Shown here: positions 16,459-41,756 of the stretch, one piece after another
Layout of the letters: every line of letters starts with the position of its first letter
Position numbering within the stretch: position 1 is the stretch's first letter
Program-made: the position numbers and the translations under genes
Virus record (IMG/VR): IMGVR_UViG_3300029288_000083
Location: 30,130-94,129 of that record
Length of the DNA: 64,000 nucleotides
Direction: 5' to 3' (one strand)
Source: a virus
Taxonomy: Duplodnaviria; Heunggongvirae; Uroviricota; Caudoviricetes
The notes under the pieces: generated by a model
Told to the model about the DNA's origin: nothing
Seen by the model: only the letters and a program-made list of their open reading frames with translations
Database searches by the model: none

Positions 16459-16539
16459 TAGCCAAGGTGGGACTCGAACCCACACGCCTTTCGGCACCAC
16501 GTTTTGAGTGTGGCGTGTCTACCATTTCACCACTCGGCC
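16459..16539 (-). tRNA. tRNA, class II (tentative Leu-CAA)
   Basis: T-arm 'gtgggactcgaacccac' on plus (minus-strand tRNA). Acceptor pairing with G-U wobbles. Anticodon loop reads CTCAAAA. Confidence 0.55.
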
Positions 16540-16544
16540 ATTTG

Positions 16545-16673
16545 TACGGGAAGTAGGACTCGAACCTACAAATTCTTTCGAATGACTGTTTTTAAGTAAT
16601 CATTGCTGCAAGTAATCTTTTATCAGATTACGCTCTTCTGGACTGTTGCGTTTACCAATTCCGCCATTCCCGT
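16545..16673 (-). tRNA. tRNA-like gene interrupted by a ~55-nt insert
   Basis: T-arm 'gtaggactcgaacctac' at 16553-16569. Complementary acceptor halves 'acgggaa'/'ttcccgt' are about 120 nt apart. Internal hairpin 'gtaatcttttatcagattac'. Confidence 0.4.
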
Positions 16674-16933
16674 ATTGTTTATTTCCATTGATGATCACGA
16701 TGATCTTTCCAACTTTTTTTGTATACCCATCTATCGCATAATCGTTTCTTTCGATTTGACCGCATGCATATACTGCAGAAAGAATAAAATCCGCAATCAA
16801 AAATACCTGGTTCTATAGTAAGAACAATTTTATATGTTCTTCTATCTGTTGTTTCTTTTAATGTTTGTTTTGTTTTCATCTGTGTATTTGGTTAAGTTAA
16901 CCTAATACACGTATAATATTTTTGTTAATGTTT

Positions 16934-17452
16934 TCATTTTCTTTTATCTGTTAAATTTAAGAACATTCGCATTTCGCCTTGTGATTTGAATTCTCTATGT
17001 TTTTCAATACATTTATTTTGAACTTTATCAAACTCTATGAATTTTATAATTCCTTGAGAAAATGGATAATCGCTATACACAATACTTACATCAACATCAA
17101 ATTTATTAGATAACGCTCCAAGTTCGGAATACACTTCTAATTGTTCTTTATGTCCATTTGATATTTTTTCATTTCCATGTTTGTATTCGATGATTCTCAA
17201 TTTACGAGAATTTCTGCTATATAAAGATAAATCAATATTTACCATTGATATGTTACGAACATTTGCTTCATCAGCAAATTTATTCAATGGTGACCCAAAA
17301 TTATGTCGTTCCGCTGTTGTCATGTTGTCGATATCAGCAGGATTCATTTCAACATATAATTTAGATAGTTCATCAACTAAAAATTGTTTATTACCTTTTG
17401 AACGACTAATAAGATTTAAAATCCTATTAGTAAACATTTTTTCATTTAGCAT
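16934..17452 (-). CDS. hypothetical protein
   Basis: ORF only. Confidence 0.35.
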   Translation of the reverse strand: MLNEKMFTNRILNLISRSKGNKQFLVDELSKLYVEMNPADIDNMTTAERHNFGSPLNKFADEANVRNISMVNIDLSLYSRNSRKLRIIEYKHGNEKISNGHKEQLEVYSELGALSNKFDVDVSIVYSDYPFSQGIIKFIEFDKVQNKCIEKHREFKSQGEMRMFLNLTDKRK

Positions 17453-18015
17453 TCTGTATTTTTTAATTCGTCTTCAATCAATTTTGCAATTTCAATAGCA
17501 GTATCTCGGTCTGCATCTAAATCCTTGAATTTTATGTTATTCTCAATTAATAAATTTCTTATGATAACTGATAACTCATTACTTTCTTCTTCTGTTTGAT
17601 TACGTCCGTTTGGATTGTAGTCTTTTGTTCTATTAAGAAAAATATTTAATGTCCAATACAAACCGTCTGCTGCAATTACAACTTTTTCTAACGCATCATT
17701 AAAAATTGTTTGTTTCGGATTATCGTTTGTGTTGTATAAACGATTATAAACAGTATTTAATAAAATAGGACTGTCTGTTATCACAACTTCAACTTTACCG
17801 TTTACTCTAAAAATCCTGTGGTGCTGTTTTCCTAACAAATATAATTGGTCTGTCATTGTGTGATGACGTTTCTCCCATACCAATTCTTTTGCAAATTCAG
17901 GAACCATTTCAGAATCAATTTTATCCCACTTTAATGCAGCAAAAGTTTCTGCCATTAATGTTGATTTGCCTGTTCCTGGTGCACCATATAAATTTACGAT
18001 TAATGTCTTTTTCAT
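17446..18015 (-). CDS. P-loop NTPase/kinase-like protein
   Basis: Walker A 'LYGAPGTGKSTL' at the N-terminus. Confidence 0.5.
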   Translation of the reverse strand: MKKTLIVNLYGAPGTGKSTLMAETFAALKWDKIDSEMVPEFAKELVWEKRHHTMTDQLYLLGKQHHRIFRVNGKVEVVITDSPILLNTVYNRLYNTNDNPKQTIFNDALEKVVIAADGLYWTLNIFLNRTKDYNPNGRNQTEEESNELSVIIRNLLIENNIKFKDLDADRDTAIEIAKLIEDELKNTEC

Positions 18016-18018
18016 ATT

Positions 18019-18567
18019 TTAAAAATTAACGTAATAACCGTATTTCTTGTTGCCATAAATTAATTTCAATGATGGATAACGTTCAGTCATGTTTTCGATT
18101 GTTAAATCATCTTGAATATGAATTTCGTGTGTATTGCCGTATGCAATACCTTGTACATAAGAATATGGAACAGCAACTAAACATTTTTGACCTTTTGAAT
18201 TCATTTCATCAATAATTCTTGTTGCATCTTCAATTGTTAAGTGTTCAAGAATGTCACCAAAAATTAAAAATTCGTATTCTGAAAAATCGAAATCAACAAT
18301 GTTAGAATGCGTCACCTTATTATAAATTTCAGATAACTTGTATTTGATAATGTATTTTTCAAACACTTCACAAGCATCAAGTTTATAAGGTGCAAGTAAT
18401 TTCGCGTACGTTCCTTTTCCTGGACCAACGTCTAGAATTTTAGTAATGTTATTTTTTTCAAACGTGTCAATTAAATATTCCTTGACTTGTTTTTTGTATG
18501 ATCCGTAACTTTGCGGCATATTAAAAAATTTAAAGATTAATGTATAACTATTAATTATTATATACAT
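18019..18567 (-). CDS. class I SAM-dependent methyltransferase
   Basis: Motif I 'ILDVGPGKGTYA' and motif 'FLIFGDILEHL'. Confidence 0.6.
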   Translation of the reverse strand: MYIIINSYTLIFKFFNMPQSYGSYKKQVKEYLIDTFEKNNITKILDVGPGKGTYAKLLAPYKLDACEVFEKYIIKYKLSEIYNKVTHSNIVDFDFSEYEFLIFGDILEHLTIEDATRIIDEMNSKGQKCLVAVPYSYVQGIAYGNTHEIHIQDDLTIENMTERYPSLKLIYGNKKYGYYVNF

Positions 18568-18586
18568 TACTAAACTATAGTTTTTG

Positions 18587-18667
18587 TAACCCCTGAGAGA
18601 CTCGAACTCTCACGTCTTTCGACACCGCATCCTAAGTGCGGCGCGTCTACCATTCCGCCAAGGGGCC
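18587..18667 (-). tRNA. tRNA, class II (tentative Leu-TAG)
   Basis: T-arm 'gagagactcgaactctc'. Anticodon arm ccgca/tcctaag/tgcgg. Confidence 0.6.
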
Positions 18668-18816
18668 ATTAGTTAAACAATTCGATTCCTCGATTTTCCC
18701 AGTTCGACCTGGGCCGTTGCATTGCTTGACCTATGCTTTACATTTGTTCCGTCAAGAACAAACAGCTTTAGTCCGAGGAGAAAGCGGCCACTCCGTTCTA
18801 CCTTTTGAATTGTTTG

Positions 18817-18897
18817 TGACCATGAGAGGACTCGAACCTCCACCCCTTTCGGGAGATGCTTCTTAGACACCCGCGTATACCATTCCGCCACATGGCC
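18817..18897 (-). tRNA. tRNA (class II, anticodon unresolved)
   Basis: T-arm 'gaggactcgaacctc'. Acceptor gaccatg/catggcc. Confidence 0.55.
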
Positions 18898-40147: not shown

Positions 40148-40285
40148 AAATTACAGGTTGAACTTTTGTCAAAATGAAAATTTGAGTTTTTATTGTTTGC
40201 TGAACTCAACCTTTTATATTTTATCAATTGAAGACCCTCGTTAAAGGAAACAGTCCAATACAGAATTCTTCAATTAAATGCAATG

Positions 40286-40357
40286 TAGCCCGTGCGAGAA
40301 TCGAACTCGCCTTTCCAGGTTGAAAACCTGATGTCCTAACCGATAGACGAACGGGCC
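40286..40357 (-). tRNA. tRNA (tentative Glu-TTC)
   Basis: T-arm gcgag/aatcgaa/ctcgc. Anticodon arm ccagg/ttgaaaa/cctga. Confidence 0.55.
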
Positions 40358-40464
40358 GTGTATTATGTTCGTGGAAAATTTTCCATGATTTCTTCGTAAA
40401 TCTCAATTTCGTCTGTTGTAATTGTTGTTTCCATAACTTTATATTATTTTAACATTTAATTTAG

Positions 40465-40539
40465 TAGGAGATGAGGGATTCGAACCCCCCGACCCGCTGA
40501 ATGTAAATCAGCCGCTCTGTACCGCTGAGCTAATCTCCT
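40465..40539 (-). tRNA. tRNA (tentative Val-TAC)
   Basis: Perfect acceptor aggagat/atctcct. Anticodon arm gctga/atgtaaa/tcagc. Confidence 0.6.
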
Positions 40540-40647
40540 ATAATAACCGGACCGCGCACACCCATTCAATAAATTCAGCAGGAACCTTGTTTAATGAATG
40601 TCCTGATGGCAGCATTCGGTCACTAATTTTTATTCAATTTATTCAAT

Positions 40648-41295
40648 TTATTCAAATTTCATTTTTCTTCCTTTATTCCATCCTTCCGGAATTGATTCAT
40701 CTTTCTTTATTTTTTTGTTTTGTTTTAAAGAAATGTTATGAATCCACATAAAACCAAATTGCGAATTTTTTTCACCTGCGTGTTTCCCACACGCAGATAA
40801 TCTCATTTTTTCTTTTGTTTCTTCACTATGTTTAGTTCCAGTTTTATCTGGTACTTTTATTTTTCCTTCGTTATGTAATTTTACTATAGTATTACGCATT
40901 CTATTAGAACATTCTTTCATATATTCGGTATCAGTTTCCATTTTACGTTTATGAACCAATCCACCGGCAATTGAACGTATTCGTTGATTTTCAACAGAAA
41001 TAAATCCGCCTTCGCCGTCAGGTCGTAAATTCATACACATACAATCGGTTTGCCATAATGATGAAATTAATTCCTTTTCTCTAATCTTCAATGAACATCT
41101 ATCAGGAAGAAACTCTAAAATTTCCTTTTTAAAATTTTCAATGCCATGTTTGCGAATTGCATTCCATAAATATTTTCCTGAACCCATATATCCATCATCT
41201 AAGTTAAATGTAGAATGCATGCCTATATAGTATTTTTCATTTATAAGATTTGTTATCTTATAAATGTAATGAATCGTGTACTGTTTCCTTGGCAT
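40648..41295 (-). CDS. GIY-YIG homing endonuclease
   Basis: 'YIYKITNLINEKYYIGMHS' (GIY-YIG). C-terminal 'WIHNISLKQNKKIKKDESIPEGWNKGRKMKFE' is paralogous to 25229..25984. Confidence 0.7.
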   Translation of the reverse strand: MPRKQYTIHYIYKITNLINEKYYIGMHSTFNLDDGYMGSGKYLWNAIRKHGIENFKKEILEFLPDRCSLKIREKELISSLWQTDCMCMNLRPDGEGGFISVENQRIRSIAGGLVHKRKMETDTEYMKECSNRMRNTIVKLHNEGKIKVPDKTGTKHSEETKEKMRLSACGKHAGEKNSQFGFMWIHNISLKQNKKIKKDESIPEGWNKGRKMKFE

Positions 41296-41345
41296 ATAAA
41301 ATTAGTTTTATTTTATATATCAAAGTTGAGGTACATTTTTTACTT

Positions 41346-41417
41346 CGGTCATAACGAGATTCGAACTCGTGTCCCAGCATAGACAGTGCCGGAGGATAAC
41401 CCCTACTCCATATGACC
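41346..41417 (-). tRNA. tRNA (possibly Asp-GTC)
   Basis: Perfect acceptor ggtcata/tatgacc. T-arm acgag/attcgaa/ctcgt. Confidence 0.5.
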
Positions 41418-41428
41418 TTATTATTTGC

Positions 41429-41500
41429 GGTACCGACGGGATTTGAACCCGCGATCTTCGCCGTGACAGGGCGACAGGGACGGCCGCTCCCCTACGGTGG
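41429..41500 (-). tRNA. tRNA-like, degenerate acceptor (anticodon loop reads GTC)
   Basis: T-arm acggg/atttgaa/cccgc. Anticodon arm tcgcc/ctgtcac/ggcga in sense. Acceptor halves do not pair (GGTACC palindrome at the 3' side). Confidence 0.3.
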
Positions 41501-41684
41501 TAAATGTATAGAGATGCACTCTATAATATTCATCGAACATTTCAGCCGGGGCATTATGCCGGCGTCCAAATCTCAAAGAACATTTAATTTTTAGTTATTC
41601 CAATTTGTCAAAGAACATTTAAATAAATCGGCTGGAGCTATCCTCCGAGCATTTAACCATTACTGGCACCGATTTATAATTTGT

Positions 41685-41756
41685 CACCCATACGAGAATC
41701 GAACTCGTATTTACAGATTGAAGGTCTGTTGTCCTAACCGTTAGACGAATGGGTGG
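41685..41756 (-). tRNA. tRNA (tentative Glu-TTC, paralog of 40286..40357)
   Basis: Perfect acceptor cacccat/atgggtg. Anticodon arm acaga/ttgaagg/tctgt. Confidence 0.6.

What the first reader, a model, noticed from the sequence alone, without database searches (positions are those of the whole stretch)
16459..41756. Exceptionally large tRNA array (~50 genes) with many duplicated anticodons, including at least five CAU-loop tRNAs
I count about 50 minus-strand tRNA genes in about 25 kb, in at least 8 clusters. By eye several anticodons recur on clearly different tRNA bodies. The loop CUCAUAA (anticodon CAU) occurs at 33943, 34113, 35451, 36214 and 36299, and also on a class-II-like body at 36386. 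UUG, UGG, UUC, GAU, UCU, UUU and GCC each occur twice. Class-II tRNAs (Leu, Ser, Tyr) are numerous. Such a large, redundant set is unusual even for tRNA-rich phages. It suggests codon-usage compensation for an AT-rich genome, and the redundancy could also act as a buffer against host tRNA-targeting defences; the CAU excess could include initiator, elongator and lysidine-Ile2 types.
Basis: seen in the sequence. Interest (0 to 1): 0.55.

Follow-up and report, generated by a model that had tools for sequence, protein, structure and literature searches.

The report
Huge-phage tRNA island with short introns
This is the tRNA gene island of a roughly 400-kb bacteriophage, large but within the known range; three of its tRNA genes are interrupted by a short, conserved, structured insert that also occurs, unremarked, in tRNAs of several cultured large phages and is probably a new class of tRNA intron.

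Summary
ARAGORN finds 50 minus-strand tRNA genes at 16458-41755 and Rfam finds 52; the union is 54 tRNA-like genes, six with anticodon CAU. The source is a 379-425 kb tailed phage deposited as a "Pacearchaeota" MAG. The set reads 94% of the phage's codons by standard wobble. Copy number tracks codon demand (rho 0.65). Same-anticodon copies are old (55-78% identical), not recent duplicates. Homing endonucleases sit between clusters, and strain variants differ in tRNA copy number. Huge phages with 67-70 tRNAs are published, so the array itself is ordinary for its kind.

The same insert class occurs in Serratia BF, Cronobacter GAP32, Xanthomonas XbC2, Aeromonas Aeh1, Vibrio D479 and uncultured contigs, usually between nucleotides 28 and 29 of the anticodon stem. 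Deleting it restores canonical tRNAs, with compensatory changes across the insert. It matches no Rfam family and differs from the "enigmatic" Lak megaphage tRNA introns. Splicing is inferred, not shown.

The parts
16458..41755 (-). tRNA island: 54 tRNA-like genes in 20 clusters, interspersed with small ORFs
   Evidence: ARAGORN 50 genes; Rfam 52 matches; ARAGORN with introns allowed; cluster summary
16544..16673 (-). tRNA-Leu(UAA) gene interrupted by a 45-nt insert (about 16596-16640) at nt 31/32 or 32/33
   Evidence: Rfam 40.9 bits with 71 nt in place of the 17-nt anticodon arm; ARAGORN intron call; deletion scan best score 113.0
36500..36626 (-). tRNA-Arg(CCU) gene interrupted by a 54-nt insert (36545-36598) between nt 28 and 29 of the anticodon stem
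   Evidence: Rfam 44.7 bits; deletion scan gives a unique optimum of 127.0 and restores CGAGA/CUCCUAA/UCUCG; full-length blastn matches in cultured phages
37947..38062 (-). tRNA-Asp(GUC) gene interrupted by a 44-nt insert (about 37992-38035; boundary can slide within nt 27-30)
   Evidence: ARAGORN with introns; motif search; deletion scan 120.5; 3' half matches annotated tRNA-Asp genes
33942..34016 (-). CAU tRNA, initiator-like (GGG/CCC next to the anticodon loop, U1xU72 mismatch)
34112..34184 (-). CAU tRNA with an initiator-like body (A11:U24, closest to E. coli fMet) but a paired 1-72
   Evidence: Rfam 71.1 bits
35453..35527 (-). CAU tRNA, best candidate for lysidine-dependent tRNA-Ile2
   Evidence: acceptor pairs C4-G69, C5-G68, C6-G67 and U7-A66 shared with T4, Aeh1, BF and E. 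coli Ile(CAU) tRNAs
36213..36477 (-). three adjacent CAU tRNAs: 36213-36286 elongator-Met-like; 36298-36371 with C1xA72, below the Rfam threshold; 36385-36477, 93 nt, initiator-like 5' half plus a long variable arm
23279..23971 (-). DUF559 / Vsr-like endonuclease ORF between tRNA genes
   Evidence: Pfam PF18741 and PF04480
25229..25984 (-). GIY-YIG-like ORF (weak match)
   Evidence: Pfam PF01541, E=0.0066
26489..27067 (-). HNH endonuclease ORF between tRNA clusters
   Evidence: Pfam HNH_3 and HNH
38104..38766 (-). Endonuclease-I-like ORF (weak match)
   Evidence: Pfam PF05367, E=0.0018
39350..40006 (-). Endonuclease-I-like ORF (weak match)
   Evidence: Pfam PF05367, E=8e-5
40648..41295 (-). 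GIY-YIG / SegE-like homing endonuclease ORF
   Evidence: Pfam PF19835 and PF01541; compare T4 segB inside the T4 tRNA cluster
30560..30982 (-). 2H phosphoesterase, CNPase / Trl1-CPD-like, inside the tRNA island
   Evidence: HVTV and HITL motifs; weak Pfam tRNA_lig_CPD match; AlphaFold model pLDDT 87; Foldseek best hits are CNPase, RICH and fungal tRNA-ligase kinase-CPD
36853..37263 (-). YqeY / GatB-domain protein between tRNA clusters
   Evidence: Pfam PF09424, E=7e-20; homologs in related phages lie in tRNA-poor contexts

Best explanation
The region is the tRNA gene island of a tailed huge phage of 379-425 kb that was deposited as a "Candidatus Pacearchaeota" MAG. It holds 54 tRNA-like genes. 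About 47-50 are canonical, three are interrupted by a short structured insert, and a few are degenerate.

Together they cover all 20 amino acids and essentially every sense codon the phage uses, mostly through U34 anticodons suited to its AT-rich codons. The most likely role is a self-sufficient tRNA supply matched to the phage's own codon demand. Such a supply keeps translation going when host tRNAs are unsuitable, depleted or cleaved.

The island is assembled and reshuffled by recombination. Free-standing homing endonucleases sit between clusters, same-anticodon copies are mostly old and divergent, and near-identical strains differ by one tRNA copy or one endonuclease cassette.

The three interrupted genes belong to a conserved class of 39-54 nt intervening sequences that has not been described as a class. 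Each has a UA start, an A-rich stretch, a 6-9 bp hairpin, C(A/C)GCAA(C), and an AU-rich tail that usually ends in AU. The usual position is between nt 28 and 29 of the anticodon stem. I infer that they are removed from the precursor RNA to give functional tRNAs.

Shown: gene content, codon match, the conservation and covariation of the insert, and the restoration of canonical tRNAs in silico. Inferred: expression, splicing and the enzymes responsible.
For: Phage identity: an identical 1251-aa protein lies on 379-425 kb contigs next to a large terminase, an 1105-aa tail sheath protein and a sigma-70 factor.

tRNA content.

Decoding: 94.4% of codons are covered; stop codons are TAA 61, TGA 5, TAG 3, so the code is standard; copies against demand give rho=0.65.

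Divergent isoacceptors.

Homing endonucleases. Strain variants with an extra Lys-UUU gene or an endonuclease cassette in otherwise 99.7-100% identical DNA.

Insert class:
- The motif occurs 3 times in the window against 0 expected, each time inside a tRNA-like gene.
- Full-length matches in five cultured phage lineages.
- An unbiased deletion scan gives ARAGORN scores of 113-127.5 and places the insert at 28/29 in 10 of 13 members.
- 12 more members in IMG/VR, with unrelated hairpin sequences and other tRNA identities, and 2 more in metagenomes.
- On 13 sequences all 11 tested pairs are 100% paired and all show double changes. The covariation score is 1.15 against 0.23 in shuffles (0 of 500 reach it) and at most 0.17 for slid partners.
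- U33 and A38 of the anticodon loop are at least 90% conserved.
- The orthologs BF, GAP32 and L064 differ by compensatory changes in the stem that the insert splits.
Against: There are no expression or RNA-end data, so splicing is an inference.

The covariation digest was built from per-sequence best hairpins and from boundaries chosen to maximise the tRNA score, so it leans towards pairing (caveat).

Three members have other insert positions or ambiguous anticodons (win_Leu, D479_c, Aeh1).

No splicing endonuclease or RNA ligase was found in the 64-kb window. Only a 2H phosphoesterase was found, and its role is ambiguous.

The closest relatives found through the YqeY neighbour have no tRNA array at that locus, so the array is lineage-specific and its selective value is not demonstrated.

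The host is unknown, so compensation relative to host codon usage is untested.
Confidence: 0.72

Rival explanations
1. The array exists mainly as an anti-defence buffer. Many sequence-divergent isoacceptors replace or outlast host tRNAs that are cleaved by anticodon nucleases (PrrC, RloC, PARIS, retron effectors, Schlafen-like), and the inserts keep precursors uncleavable until the phage processes them.
For: Same-anticodon copies are as divergent as unrelated tRNAs. Published work shows that phage tRNAs evade or neutralise tRNA-targeting defences (PMC10264068, PMC11464382, PMC11555353; listed). The insert-bearing tRNAs are enriched for known nuclease targets: Lys-UUU in 4 of the 13 GenBank/window members and 8 of the 12 IMG/VR members, plus Arg, Asn, Asp and Glu. 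A 2H phosphoesterase lies in the island.
Against: No nuclease, host or cleavage data are available. Copy number follows codon demand, which supply alone explains. The enrichment for Lys is partly a sampling effect, because one orthologous gene is counted in many Rak2-like phages and the search pattern fixed one D-arm.
Confidence: 0.3
2. The redundancy is largely neutral cargo. tRNA genes hitch-hike with homing endonucleases and accumulate by recombination between co-infecting phages, with little selection on most copies.
For: Six endonuclease-like ORFs lie between clusters. Copy number and cassettes are polymorphic between near-identical strains. There are degenerate tRNAs and tRNA fragments at 24370, 34382 and 39106-39260. 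T4 segB is known to drive inheritance of the T4 tRNA region (PMC2330249, listed).
Against: Most genes score as well as cellular tRNAs. The set is complete and matched to codon demand. The old divergent copies are still intact, which implies purifying selection.
Confidence: 0.2
3. The three interrupted genes are pseudogenes, disrupted by a small mobile DNA element (MITE-like) that targets tRNA anticodon arms. They are never spliced.
For: GenBank annotators called the BF copy "tRNA-Pseudo". Decayed copies that keep the hairpin, CAGCAA and a T-arm but lack a 5' half exist in GAP32 and XbC2. The window's Arg-CCU reads a codon used only 15 times in 15,109.
Against: Compensatory substitutions keep the split anticodon stem paired in orthologs that both carry the insert. 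The anticodon loops keep U33 and A38. The acceptor, D and T arms stay intact. No insert-less near-identical allele was found in GenBank phages, so there is no sign of recent insertion.
Confidence: 0.15
4. The insert is retained in the mature RNA as an extra arm. The molecule is then not a decoding tRNA but a tRNA-like decoy or a scaffold for a protein that binds the hairpin-CAGCAAC module.
For: The hairpin and the CAGCAAC motif are more conserved than a passive spacer needs to be. tRNA-like regulatory RNAs exist in phages; T4 rnaC and rnaD, of unknown function, sit in the T4 tRNA cluster.
Against: Canonical 7-nt anticodon loops with sensible anticodons, and covarying anticodon stems, are maintained. 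That is expected only if the molecule decodes. A ~50-nt protrusion from positions 28/29 should clash with the ribosome; this last point is my inference from the known tRNA-ribosome contacts at the anticodon stem. No sequence homology to T4 rnaC or rnaD was seen.
Confidence: 0.12

Closest known systems
tRNA gene complements of huge or jumbo phages (Al-Shayeb et al. 2020, PMC7162821; jumbo-phage surveys PMC13037316 and PMC7824862)
   Same: A phage genome over 200 kb with dozens of tRNA genes distinct from host tRNAs, a count that scales with genome size, and accompanying RNA-metabolism genes.
   Different: Nothing essential. With 50-54 genes in one 25-kb island it sits near, but below, the published maxima of 67 and 70.
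Phage T4 tRNA cluster with the segB homing endonuclease (PMC2330249; T4 record)
   Same: Co-oriented tRNA genes interspersed with free-standing GIY-YIG or HNH endonuclease genes, with recombination-driven inheritance of the region.
   Different: T4 has 8 tRNAs and one endonuclease. Here there are 54 tRNA-like genes and at least six endonuclease-like ORFs. T4 has no insert-bearing tRNAs. T4 rnaC and rnaD show no clear homology to the inserts.
"Enigmatic" tRNA introns of Lak megaphages (Devoto et al. 2019, PMC6784885, Table S6)
   Same: Intervening sequences in tRNA genes of huge phages, with no Rfam match, a short hairpin near the 5' end of the insert, and an unknown removal mechanism.
   Different: Lak inserts are 79-114 nt, placed at nt 37/38, carry an AAAUUAAAC-type motif and a nested tRNA-like element, and contain no CAGCAA or CCGCAA. 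The class here is 39-54 nt, mostly at 28/29, has the hairpin-C(A/C)GCAA(C) signature, and occurs in cultured phages of Proteobacteria.
Archaeal non-canonical (bulge-helix-bulge) tRNA introns (PMC4090602)
   Same: Short, protein-free intervening sequences at non-canonical positions, including the anticodon stem. Removing them restores the cloverleaf.
   Different: By inspection I found no bulge-helix-bulge motif at the junctions. The genome is a bacteriophage (terminase, sheath, bacterial sigma factor), despite its archaeal MAG label. No EndA was seen in the window.
Group I introns in bacterial and phage tRNA genes (PMC3984707)
   Same: They interrupt the anticodon region of tRNA genes, including Leu-UAA and Arg-CCU.
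   Different: By my recollection, group I introns are at least ~200 nt with a conserved catalytic core and lie in the anticodon loop. These inserts are 39-54 nt, have no Rfam group I match, and lie mostly inside the stem.

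Membership tests
Huge-phage tRNA gene island | Located in a tailed-phage genome larger than 200 kb | tested here: met
   An identical protein lies on 379-kb and 425-kb contigs. Its neighbours are Terminase_6N, Phage_sheath_1C and Sigma70_r2.
Huge-phage tRNA gene island | Dozens of bona fide tRNA genes, within the published range (up to 67-70) | tested here: met
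   50 by ARAGORN, 52 by Rfam, union 54. Published range from PMC7162821 and PMC13037316.
Huge-phage tRNA gene island | tRNA repertoire matched to phage codon usage | tested here: met
   94.4% of codons covered; Spearman 0.65 between copy number and demand.
Huge-phage tRNA gene island | tRNAs distinct from those of the host | not testable with these tools
   The host was not identified. A T9SS C-terminal domain in one ORF only hints at Bacteroidota.
T4-type tRNA cluster with free-standing homing endonucleases | seg/mob-type endonuclease genes (GIY-YIG, HNH) between tRNA genes | tested here: met
   HNH at 26489-27067; GIY-YIG/SegE-like at 40648-41295 and weakly at 25229-25984; DUF559 at 23279-23971; Endo-I-like, twice, weakly.
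Bacterial chromosomal long tRNA arrays (L-arrays, PMC8421152) | Array lies in a bacterial chromosome or plasmid | tested here: not met
   The context is a phage.
Group I intron in tRNA | Catalytic core (P3-P9), length of about 200 nt or more, match to the Rfam group I models | tested here: not met
   The inserts are 39-54 nt. Only RF00005 overlaps them in gathering and E-value scans.
Archaeal/eukaryal enzymatically spliced tRNA intron (BHB type) | Bulge-helix-bulge (3-4-3) motif presenting both splice sites | tested here: inconclusive
   By manual inspection and MFE folds, the 5' junction of the Arg gene lies inside a continuous helix (CGUAU/AUACG). I found no consistent 3-4-3 motif across members, but I ran no dedicated BHB search.
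Archaeal/eukaryal enzymatically spliced tRNA intron (BHB type) | Splicing endonuclease (EndA/Sen) and an RNA ligase encoded by the host or the element | not tested
   Only 64 kb of about 400 kb was visible. No EndA or ligase appeared among the ORFs scanned. A 2H CPD-like enzyme is present.
Lak megaphage tRNA introns (PMC6784885) | Intervening sequence in a tRNA gene of a huge phage, with no Rfam family | tested here: met
Lak megaphage tRNA introns (PMC6784885) | 79-114 nt, at nt 37/38, with an AAAUUAAAC motif and a nested tRNA-like element | tested here: not met
   In Table S6 as stored (the file was cut when stored) there is no CAGCAA or CCGCAA. Lengths, position and architecture all differ.
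Proposed class: short hairpin-CAGCAA tRNA insert of large phages | 39-54 nt; 6-9 bp hairpin followed within 1-4 nt by C(A/C)GCA(A/C); deletion restores a canonical anticodon arm | tested here: met
   All three window genes meet it. So do 10 GenBank members, 12 IMG/VR members and 2 metagenome members.

The most novel reading that the evidence does not exclude
The hairpin-CAGCAA inserts are a new, widespread class of genuine tRNA introns in bacteriophages. They are cut out of the anticodon stem at nt 28|29. The exon ends are then left as a nick in a duplex and are rejoined by phage "RNA repair" enzymes (2H CPDase, polynucleotide kinase, Rnl1/Rnl2 or RtcB, KptA). If so, these enzymes, including nick-sealing Rnl2, whose natural substrate is (to my knowledge) unknown, have a dedicated tRNA-splicing role in large phages. 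Splicing could also act as a timing or anti-nuclease gate on specific tRNAs.
Probability: 0.35. Interest if true: 0.85.

Novelty: new variant of a known kind. Interest (0 to 1): 0.6.

Why it matters
The array itself adds one more example of near-complete translational self-sufficiency in huge phages. It also shows that a 425-kb public "archaeal" contig is a phage.

The inserts matter more. Enzymatic tRNA splicing is regarded as an archaeal and eukaryotic trait, and the only bacterial tRNA introns with a known mechanism are self-splicing group I introns. Here a short, conserved, covarying intervening sequence sits at one fixed position in the anticodon stem of many phage tRNAs. It is present in phages that can be grown today on Cronobacter, Serratia, Aeromonas, Xanthomonas and Vibrio. 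That turns the "enigmatic intron" observation from Lak megaphages into a problem that experiments can address. It also offers a possible natural function for the RNA ligase, kinase and phosphoesterase sets of large phages.

There is a practical consequence too. These genes are currently annotated inconsistently as pseudo-tRNA, tRNA-Lys, tRNA-Val or tRNA-Phe(AAA), as a membrane protein, or not at all. tRNA counts and anticodon tables for large phages are therefore slightly wrong.

Tried and rejected
1. Archaeal origin. The NCBI label is Pacearchaeota, which would have explained non-canonical introns. I rejected it because a terminase, a tail sheath and a bacterial sigma-70 factor lie next door.

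2. Exact window-type motif in IMG/VR: 8 hits, none in a tRNA context, so all chance.

3. Relatives through the SPFH protein, the 751-aa protein and YqeY. The related phages found have no tRNA array at those loci, so they give no comparative data on the array itself.

4. Homology of the inserts to T4 rnaC or rnaD: no shared architecture.

5. Known ribozymes or RNA families in the inserts: none.

6. A bulge-helix-bulge reading by inspection: not convincing.

7. A closing helix between the 5' and 3' ends of the insert: present in some members (D479_a has 6 bp, L127 has 5 bp), absent in others, so it is not claimed.

8. MAFFT alignment of full-length members misaligned the inserts. I replaced it with fixed-length structural digests.

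9. Single-sequence AlphaFold model of the 2H ORF: pLDDT 35, unusable. I redid it with an alignment.

10. PDB sequence searches for the 2H ORF: no hits.

11. Search for an insert-less allele of the BF Lys gene: none, so there is no evidence of recent mobility.

12. The weak fourth motif hit at 28364-28390 is the 3' end of tRNA-Pro plus spacer, not an insert.

Full report
**Observation.** ARAGORN on the whole window returns exactly 50 tRNA genes, all on the minus strand, between 16458 and 41755. Rfam's tRNA model returns 52 matches above its gathering score. Small corrections apply. UUG occurs three times. UGC, UGU, GUA, GUC and UAA are also duplicated. With a 150-nt gap rule there are 20 clusters. 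Three ARAGORN genes have six-base anticodon loops, and 36298-36371 fails the Rfam threshold, so a handful are probably degenerate. The union is 54 tRNA-like genes in 25.3 kb.

**What genome this is.** The window is 30-37% G+C with nearly all long ORFs on the minus strand. It has no close relative among GenBank phages. A 1221-aa ORF at the window edge is identical to an NCBI protein labelled [quoted passage not shown], found on contigs up to 425 kb. On the 379-kb ENA copy the adjacent genes are a large terminase, an 1105-aa contractile-tail sheath protein and a sigma-70 factor. This is a huge tailed bacteriophage that was binned as an archaeon. A T9SS C-terminal sorting domain in one ORF hints at a Bacteroidota host, but the host was not established.

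**How the array is built and what it can do.**
- *Codon coverage.* From 69 minus-strand ORFs (15,109 codons) GC3 is 0.21. Stop codons are TAA 61, TGA 5 and TAG 3, so the code is standard. The phage tRNAs read 94.4% of codons by ordinary wobble. The only gaps are GCY, CCY and ACY, which are covered if U34 reads all four codons of a family box. All 20 amino acids are represented.
- *Copy number.* It tracks codon demand (Spearman 0.65, p=1e-4). For example there are three UAA-Leu and three UUG-Gln genes for TTA and CAA.
- *Age of the copies.* Same-anticodon copies are 55-78% identical, barely above the 59±5% background for unrelated class-I tRNAs. Only the two Thr-UGU genes are identical. The redundancy is therefore old or independently acquired, not recent tandem duplication.
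- *Turnover.* Between clusters lie HNH, GIY-YIG/SegE-like, DUF559 and Endo-I-like ORFs, as segB does in the T4 tRNA cluster. Copies of the same phage from other samples are 99.7-100% identical in flanking DNA. Yet one carries three instead of two Lys-UUU genes, and another carries a 2-kb endonuclease cassette plus a variant Lys gene.
- *Relatives.* Phages found through the YqeY neighbour have no tRNA array at that locus.
- *Benchmark.* Published huge phages carry up to 67 or 70 tRNAs (PMC7162821, PMC13037316). The array is a large but ordinary member of a known kind.

**CAU tRNAs.** ATA (474 codons) is used more than ATG (284), so an Ile2-type tRNA is needed. By sequence features:
- 33942-34016 is initiator-like: three G-C pairs next to the anticodon loop and a 1x72 mismatch.
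- 34112-34184 has an initiator-like body but a paired 1-72.
- 35453-35527 shares C4-G69, C5-G68, C6-G67 and U7-A66 with T4, Aeh1, BF and E. coli Ile(CAU) tRNAs.
- 36213-36286 resembles elongator Met.
- 36298-36371 has C1xA72 but is a weak tRNA.
- The 93-nt gene at 36385-36477 has a 5' half almost identical to the Aeh1 CAU tRNA (annotated tRNA-Met), plus an enlarged variable arm.

**The unexpected part: a conserved insert in three tRNA genes.** The long Rfam matches keep normal acceptor, D and T arms but have about 70 nt where the 17-nt anticodon arm should be. All three inserts share a hairpin whose outer pairs covary (UAAUCU/AGAUUA, AAAUCU/AGAUUU, GAAUCU/AGAUUC), followed by CAGCAA. The motif occurs three times in the window against none expected, each time inside a tRNA-like gene.

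A blastn search with the Arg gene then gave full-length matches, insert included, in cultured phages: Serratia BF, six Erwinia pEa_SNUABM phages, Aeromonas Aeh1, Vibrio D479 (four such genes), Cronobacter GAP32 (two), Xanthomonas XbC2 (two) and Erwinia Kaldavass. These genes are annotated inconsistently as tRNA-Pseudo, tRNA-Lys, tRNA-Val(CAC) or tRNA-Phe(AAA), as a small membrane protein, or not at all.

**Objective boundaries.** For 13 members I deleted every segment of 25-69 nt and let ARAGORN score the product. The best products score 113-127.5, as high as the ordinary tRNAs in the window. In 10 of the 13, the deleted segment is 44-54 nt and lies between nucleotides 28 and 29, inside the 5' strand of the anticodon stem. 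It almost always starts with UA and usually ends with AU. The restored genes are Arg-CCU, Lys-UUU (four), Glu-UUC (two), Asn-GUU, Asp-GUC and Pro-AGG, with fully paired stems in nine of the ten. The exceptions are the window's Leu-UAA (insert at 31/32 or 32/33), D479_c (after the anticodon) and Aeh1 (ambiguous; the best product has anticodon UCA).

**Spread beyond GenBank.** A pattern scan of IMG/VR for one common D-arm followed by NN-UA…CAGCAAC gave 102 hits. Fourteen also had the hairpin and a T-arm, and 12 of those yielded tRNAs after deletion. These include Ile-UAU, Ile-GAU and Asn-GUU with quite different hairpin sequences, on contigs of 19-378 kb. A metagenome scan for the window's own hairpin variant found two more genuine members, one best read as an ochre-suppressor tRNA.

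**Covariation.** I built a gap-free alignment of fixed-length structural digests from 13 distinct members. On it, all 143 cells of 11 tested pairs are standard pairs and all 11 pairs show changes on both sides. The pairs are 27-43 and 28-42 across the insert, 29-41 to 31-39, and six hairpin pairs. The covariation score is 1.15 against 0.23 in shuffles (0 of 500 reach it) and at most 0.17 when partners are slid. The caveat is that hairpins and boundaries were chosen per sequence to maximise pairing, so the numbers lean towards the structure. The independent points are these: exon 1 always supplies exactly the two bases that complete the exon 2 stem; the orthologs BF, GAP32 and L064 differ by compensatory changes in that stem; and U33 and A38 stay conserved.

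**What the inserts are most likely to be.** Selection has kept a decodable anticodon arm that can only form properly, and fit a ribosome, if about 50 nt are removed. This favours a true intervening sequence excised from the precursor RNA. The ribosome point is my inference from the known contacts of the anticodon stem.
- They are not group I introns: too short, and no Rfam match.
- I could not find a bulge-helix-bulge motif by inspection, though I ran no dedicated search.
- They are not the Lak megaphage introns. Those are the only phage tRNA introns I found in the literature, are called "enigmatic" there, and are 79-114 nt at 37/38 with a nested tRNA-like module and no CAGCAA (PMC6784885).
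- The papers on Aeh1 and on CBB/GAP32 list the tRNAs without comment on inserts. A comparative review of jumbo phages treats RNA ligases, kinases, 2H phosphoesterases and KptA purely as repair enzymes (PMC7824862).

**Candidate enzymes.** Inside the window's tRNA island there is a 140-aa 2H phosphoesterase. It has HVTV and HITL motifs. A confident AlphaFold model (pLDDT 87) best matches CNPase, RICH and the fungal tRNA-ligase kinase-CPD. That enzyme could heal 2',3'-cyclic-phosphate ends, but 2H enzymes also degrade signalling nucleotides, so this is only suggestive. I found no endonuclease or ligase candidate in the 64 kb available. One untested idea: excision at 28|29 leaves a nick inside a duplex, which is the preferred substrate of Rnl2-type ligases.

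**Rivals for the inserts.** The pseudogene (MITE-like) reading is weakened by the compensatory changes and by the absence of insert-less alleles, although decayed copies do exist in GAP32 and XbC2. The retained-arm or decoy reading is weakened by the conserved canonical anticodon loops. Neither is excluded without RNA data.

**Verdict.** Its interpretation is reasonable but overstated on size and only partly testable. The array is a new member of a known kind. The short hairpin-CAGCAA inserts are, as far as the searchable literature and Rfam 15 show, an undescribed and widespread variant of phage tRNA intervening sequences. They are present in cultured phages, so they can be tested experimentally now.

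Noticed in passing
whole window; loci L011, L021: The source contig (379-425 kb) is deposited at NCBI as "Candidatus Pacearchaeota archaeon" (locus tags WC979_). It encodes a large terminase, a tail sheath protein and sigma-70, so it is a huge phage binned as an archaeon.
   Followed up: yes
window 18816-18897: tRNA-Leu with anticodon AAG. To my knowledge, A34 in bacteria is normally confined to tRNA-Arg(ACG). CTT is 20% of the phage's Leu codons, which would suit an inosine-type reader.
   Followed up: no
window 27470-27554: An 85-nt tRNA-Cys(GCA) with a class-II-like D loop, a long variable arm and U73, sitting between two tRNA-Ser genes. This is an unusual body for a Cys tRNA.
   Followed up: no
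window 36385-36477: A 93-nt CAU tRNA. Its 5' half is nearly identical to the Aeh1 CAU tRNA (annotated tRNA-Met), which has an initiator-like D arm. It has a 1x72 mismatch (CxU) and an extra hairpin (CCCU/AGGG) in the variable region.
   Followed up: partly
window 39106-39260: A patch of tRNA debris: an isolated T-arm (AUUGGUUCGAAUCCAAU), a 5' tRNA half and an aberrant 69-nt tRNA-like gene. This looks like a recombination scar.
   Followed up: partly
window 24370-24453 and 34382-34453: Two tRNA-like genes with six-base anticodon loops (Rfam 35 and 44.5 bits). They are either pseudogenes or unusual decoders.
   Followed up: no
window 26407-26490 and 28694-28777: The two Thr-UGU genes are 100% identical and lie in an 84-bp repeat. 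This is the only recent duplication in the array.
   Followed up: yes
window 31205-33386: An SPFH/flotillin-like protein (527 aa) and an NfeD-like partner lie in the middle of the tRNA island. A 69%-identical flotillin homolog occurs on a 151-kb IMG/VR contig with no tRNAs nearby.
   Followed up: partly
window 6993-8291 and 10004-11038; loci L015-L017: The window has a PARP-like ADP-ribosyltransferase and an HD plus cytidylyltransferase (NMNAT-like) protein. Relatives carry SIR2, NUDIX and NAMPT genes. Together these form an NAD-metabolism module of the kind discussed as anti-defence in jumbo phages.
   Followed up: no
L019 1530-1603; L020 877-950: Relatives of this phage (YqeY 63% identical) carry a tRNA with anticodon CUA (amber suppressor) next to YqeY. 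The window phage uses the standard code and has no suppressor in the 64 kb.
   Followed up: no
L033 15010-15129 (GAP32_431A): A 39-aa "putative membrane protein" in Cronobacter phage GAP32 is annotated on top of an insert-bearing tRNA-Lys(UUU). The ORF is probably spurious.
   Followed up: partly
L034 11998-12119 (Aeromonas phage Aeh1): The gene annotated tRNA-Val(CAC) belongs to the insert class. The best in-silico spliced product has anticodon UCA, which would make it an opal suppressor or Sec-like tRNA, not Val.
   Followed up: partly
L197 about 5170-5300: A metagenome contig carries an insert-bearing tRNA whose best spliced product has anticodon UUA (ochre suppressor). The insert class therefore also occurs in candidate suppressor tRNAs.
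   Followed up: partly
L033 18192-18320; L035 17284-17411: GAP32 and XbC2 share an element that keeps the hairpin, CAGCAA and a T-arm but has no recognisable 5' tRNA half. It looks like a decayed insert-bearing tRNA.
   Followed up: no
L030 1909-2172 (phage T4 rnaC and rnaD): T4's two stable RNAs of unknown function lie beside tRNA-Arg. rnaC ends in a perfect tRNA-like T-arm and rnaD contains ACAGCAG. I saw no convincing homology to the insert class, but the resemblance in size and location is curious.
   Followed up: partly
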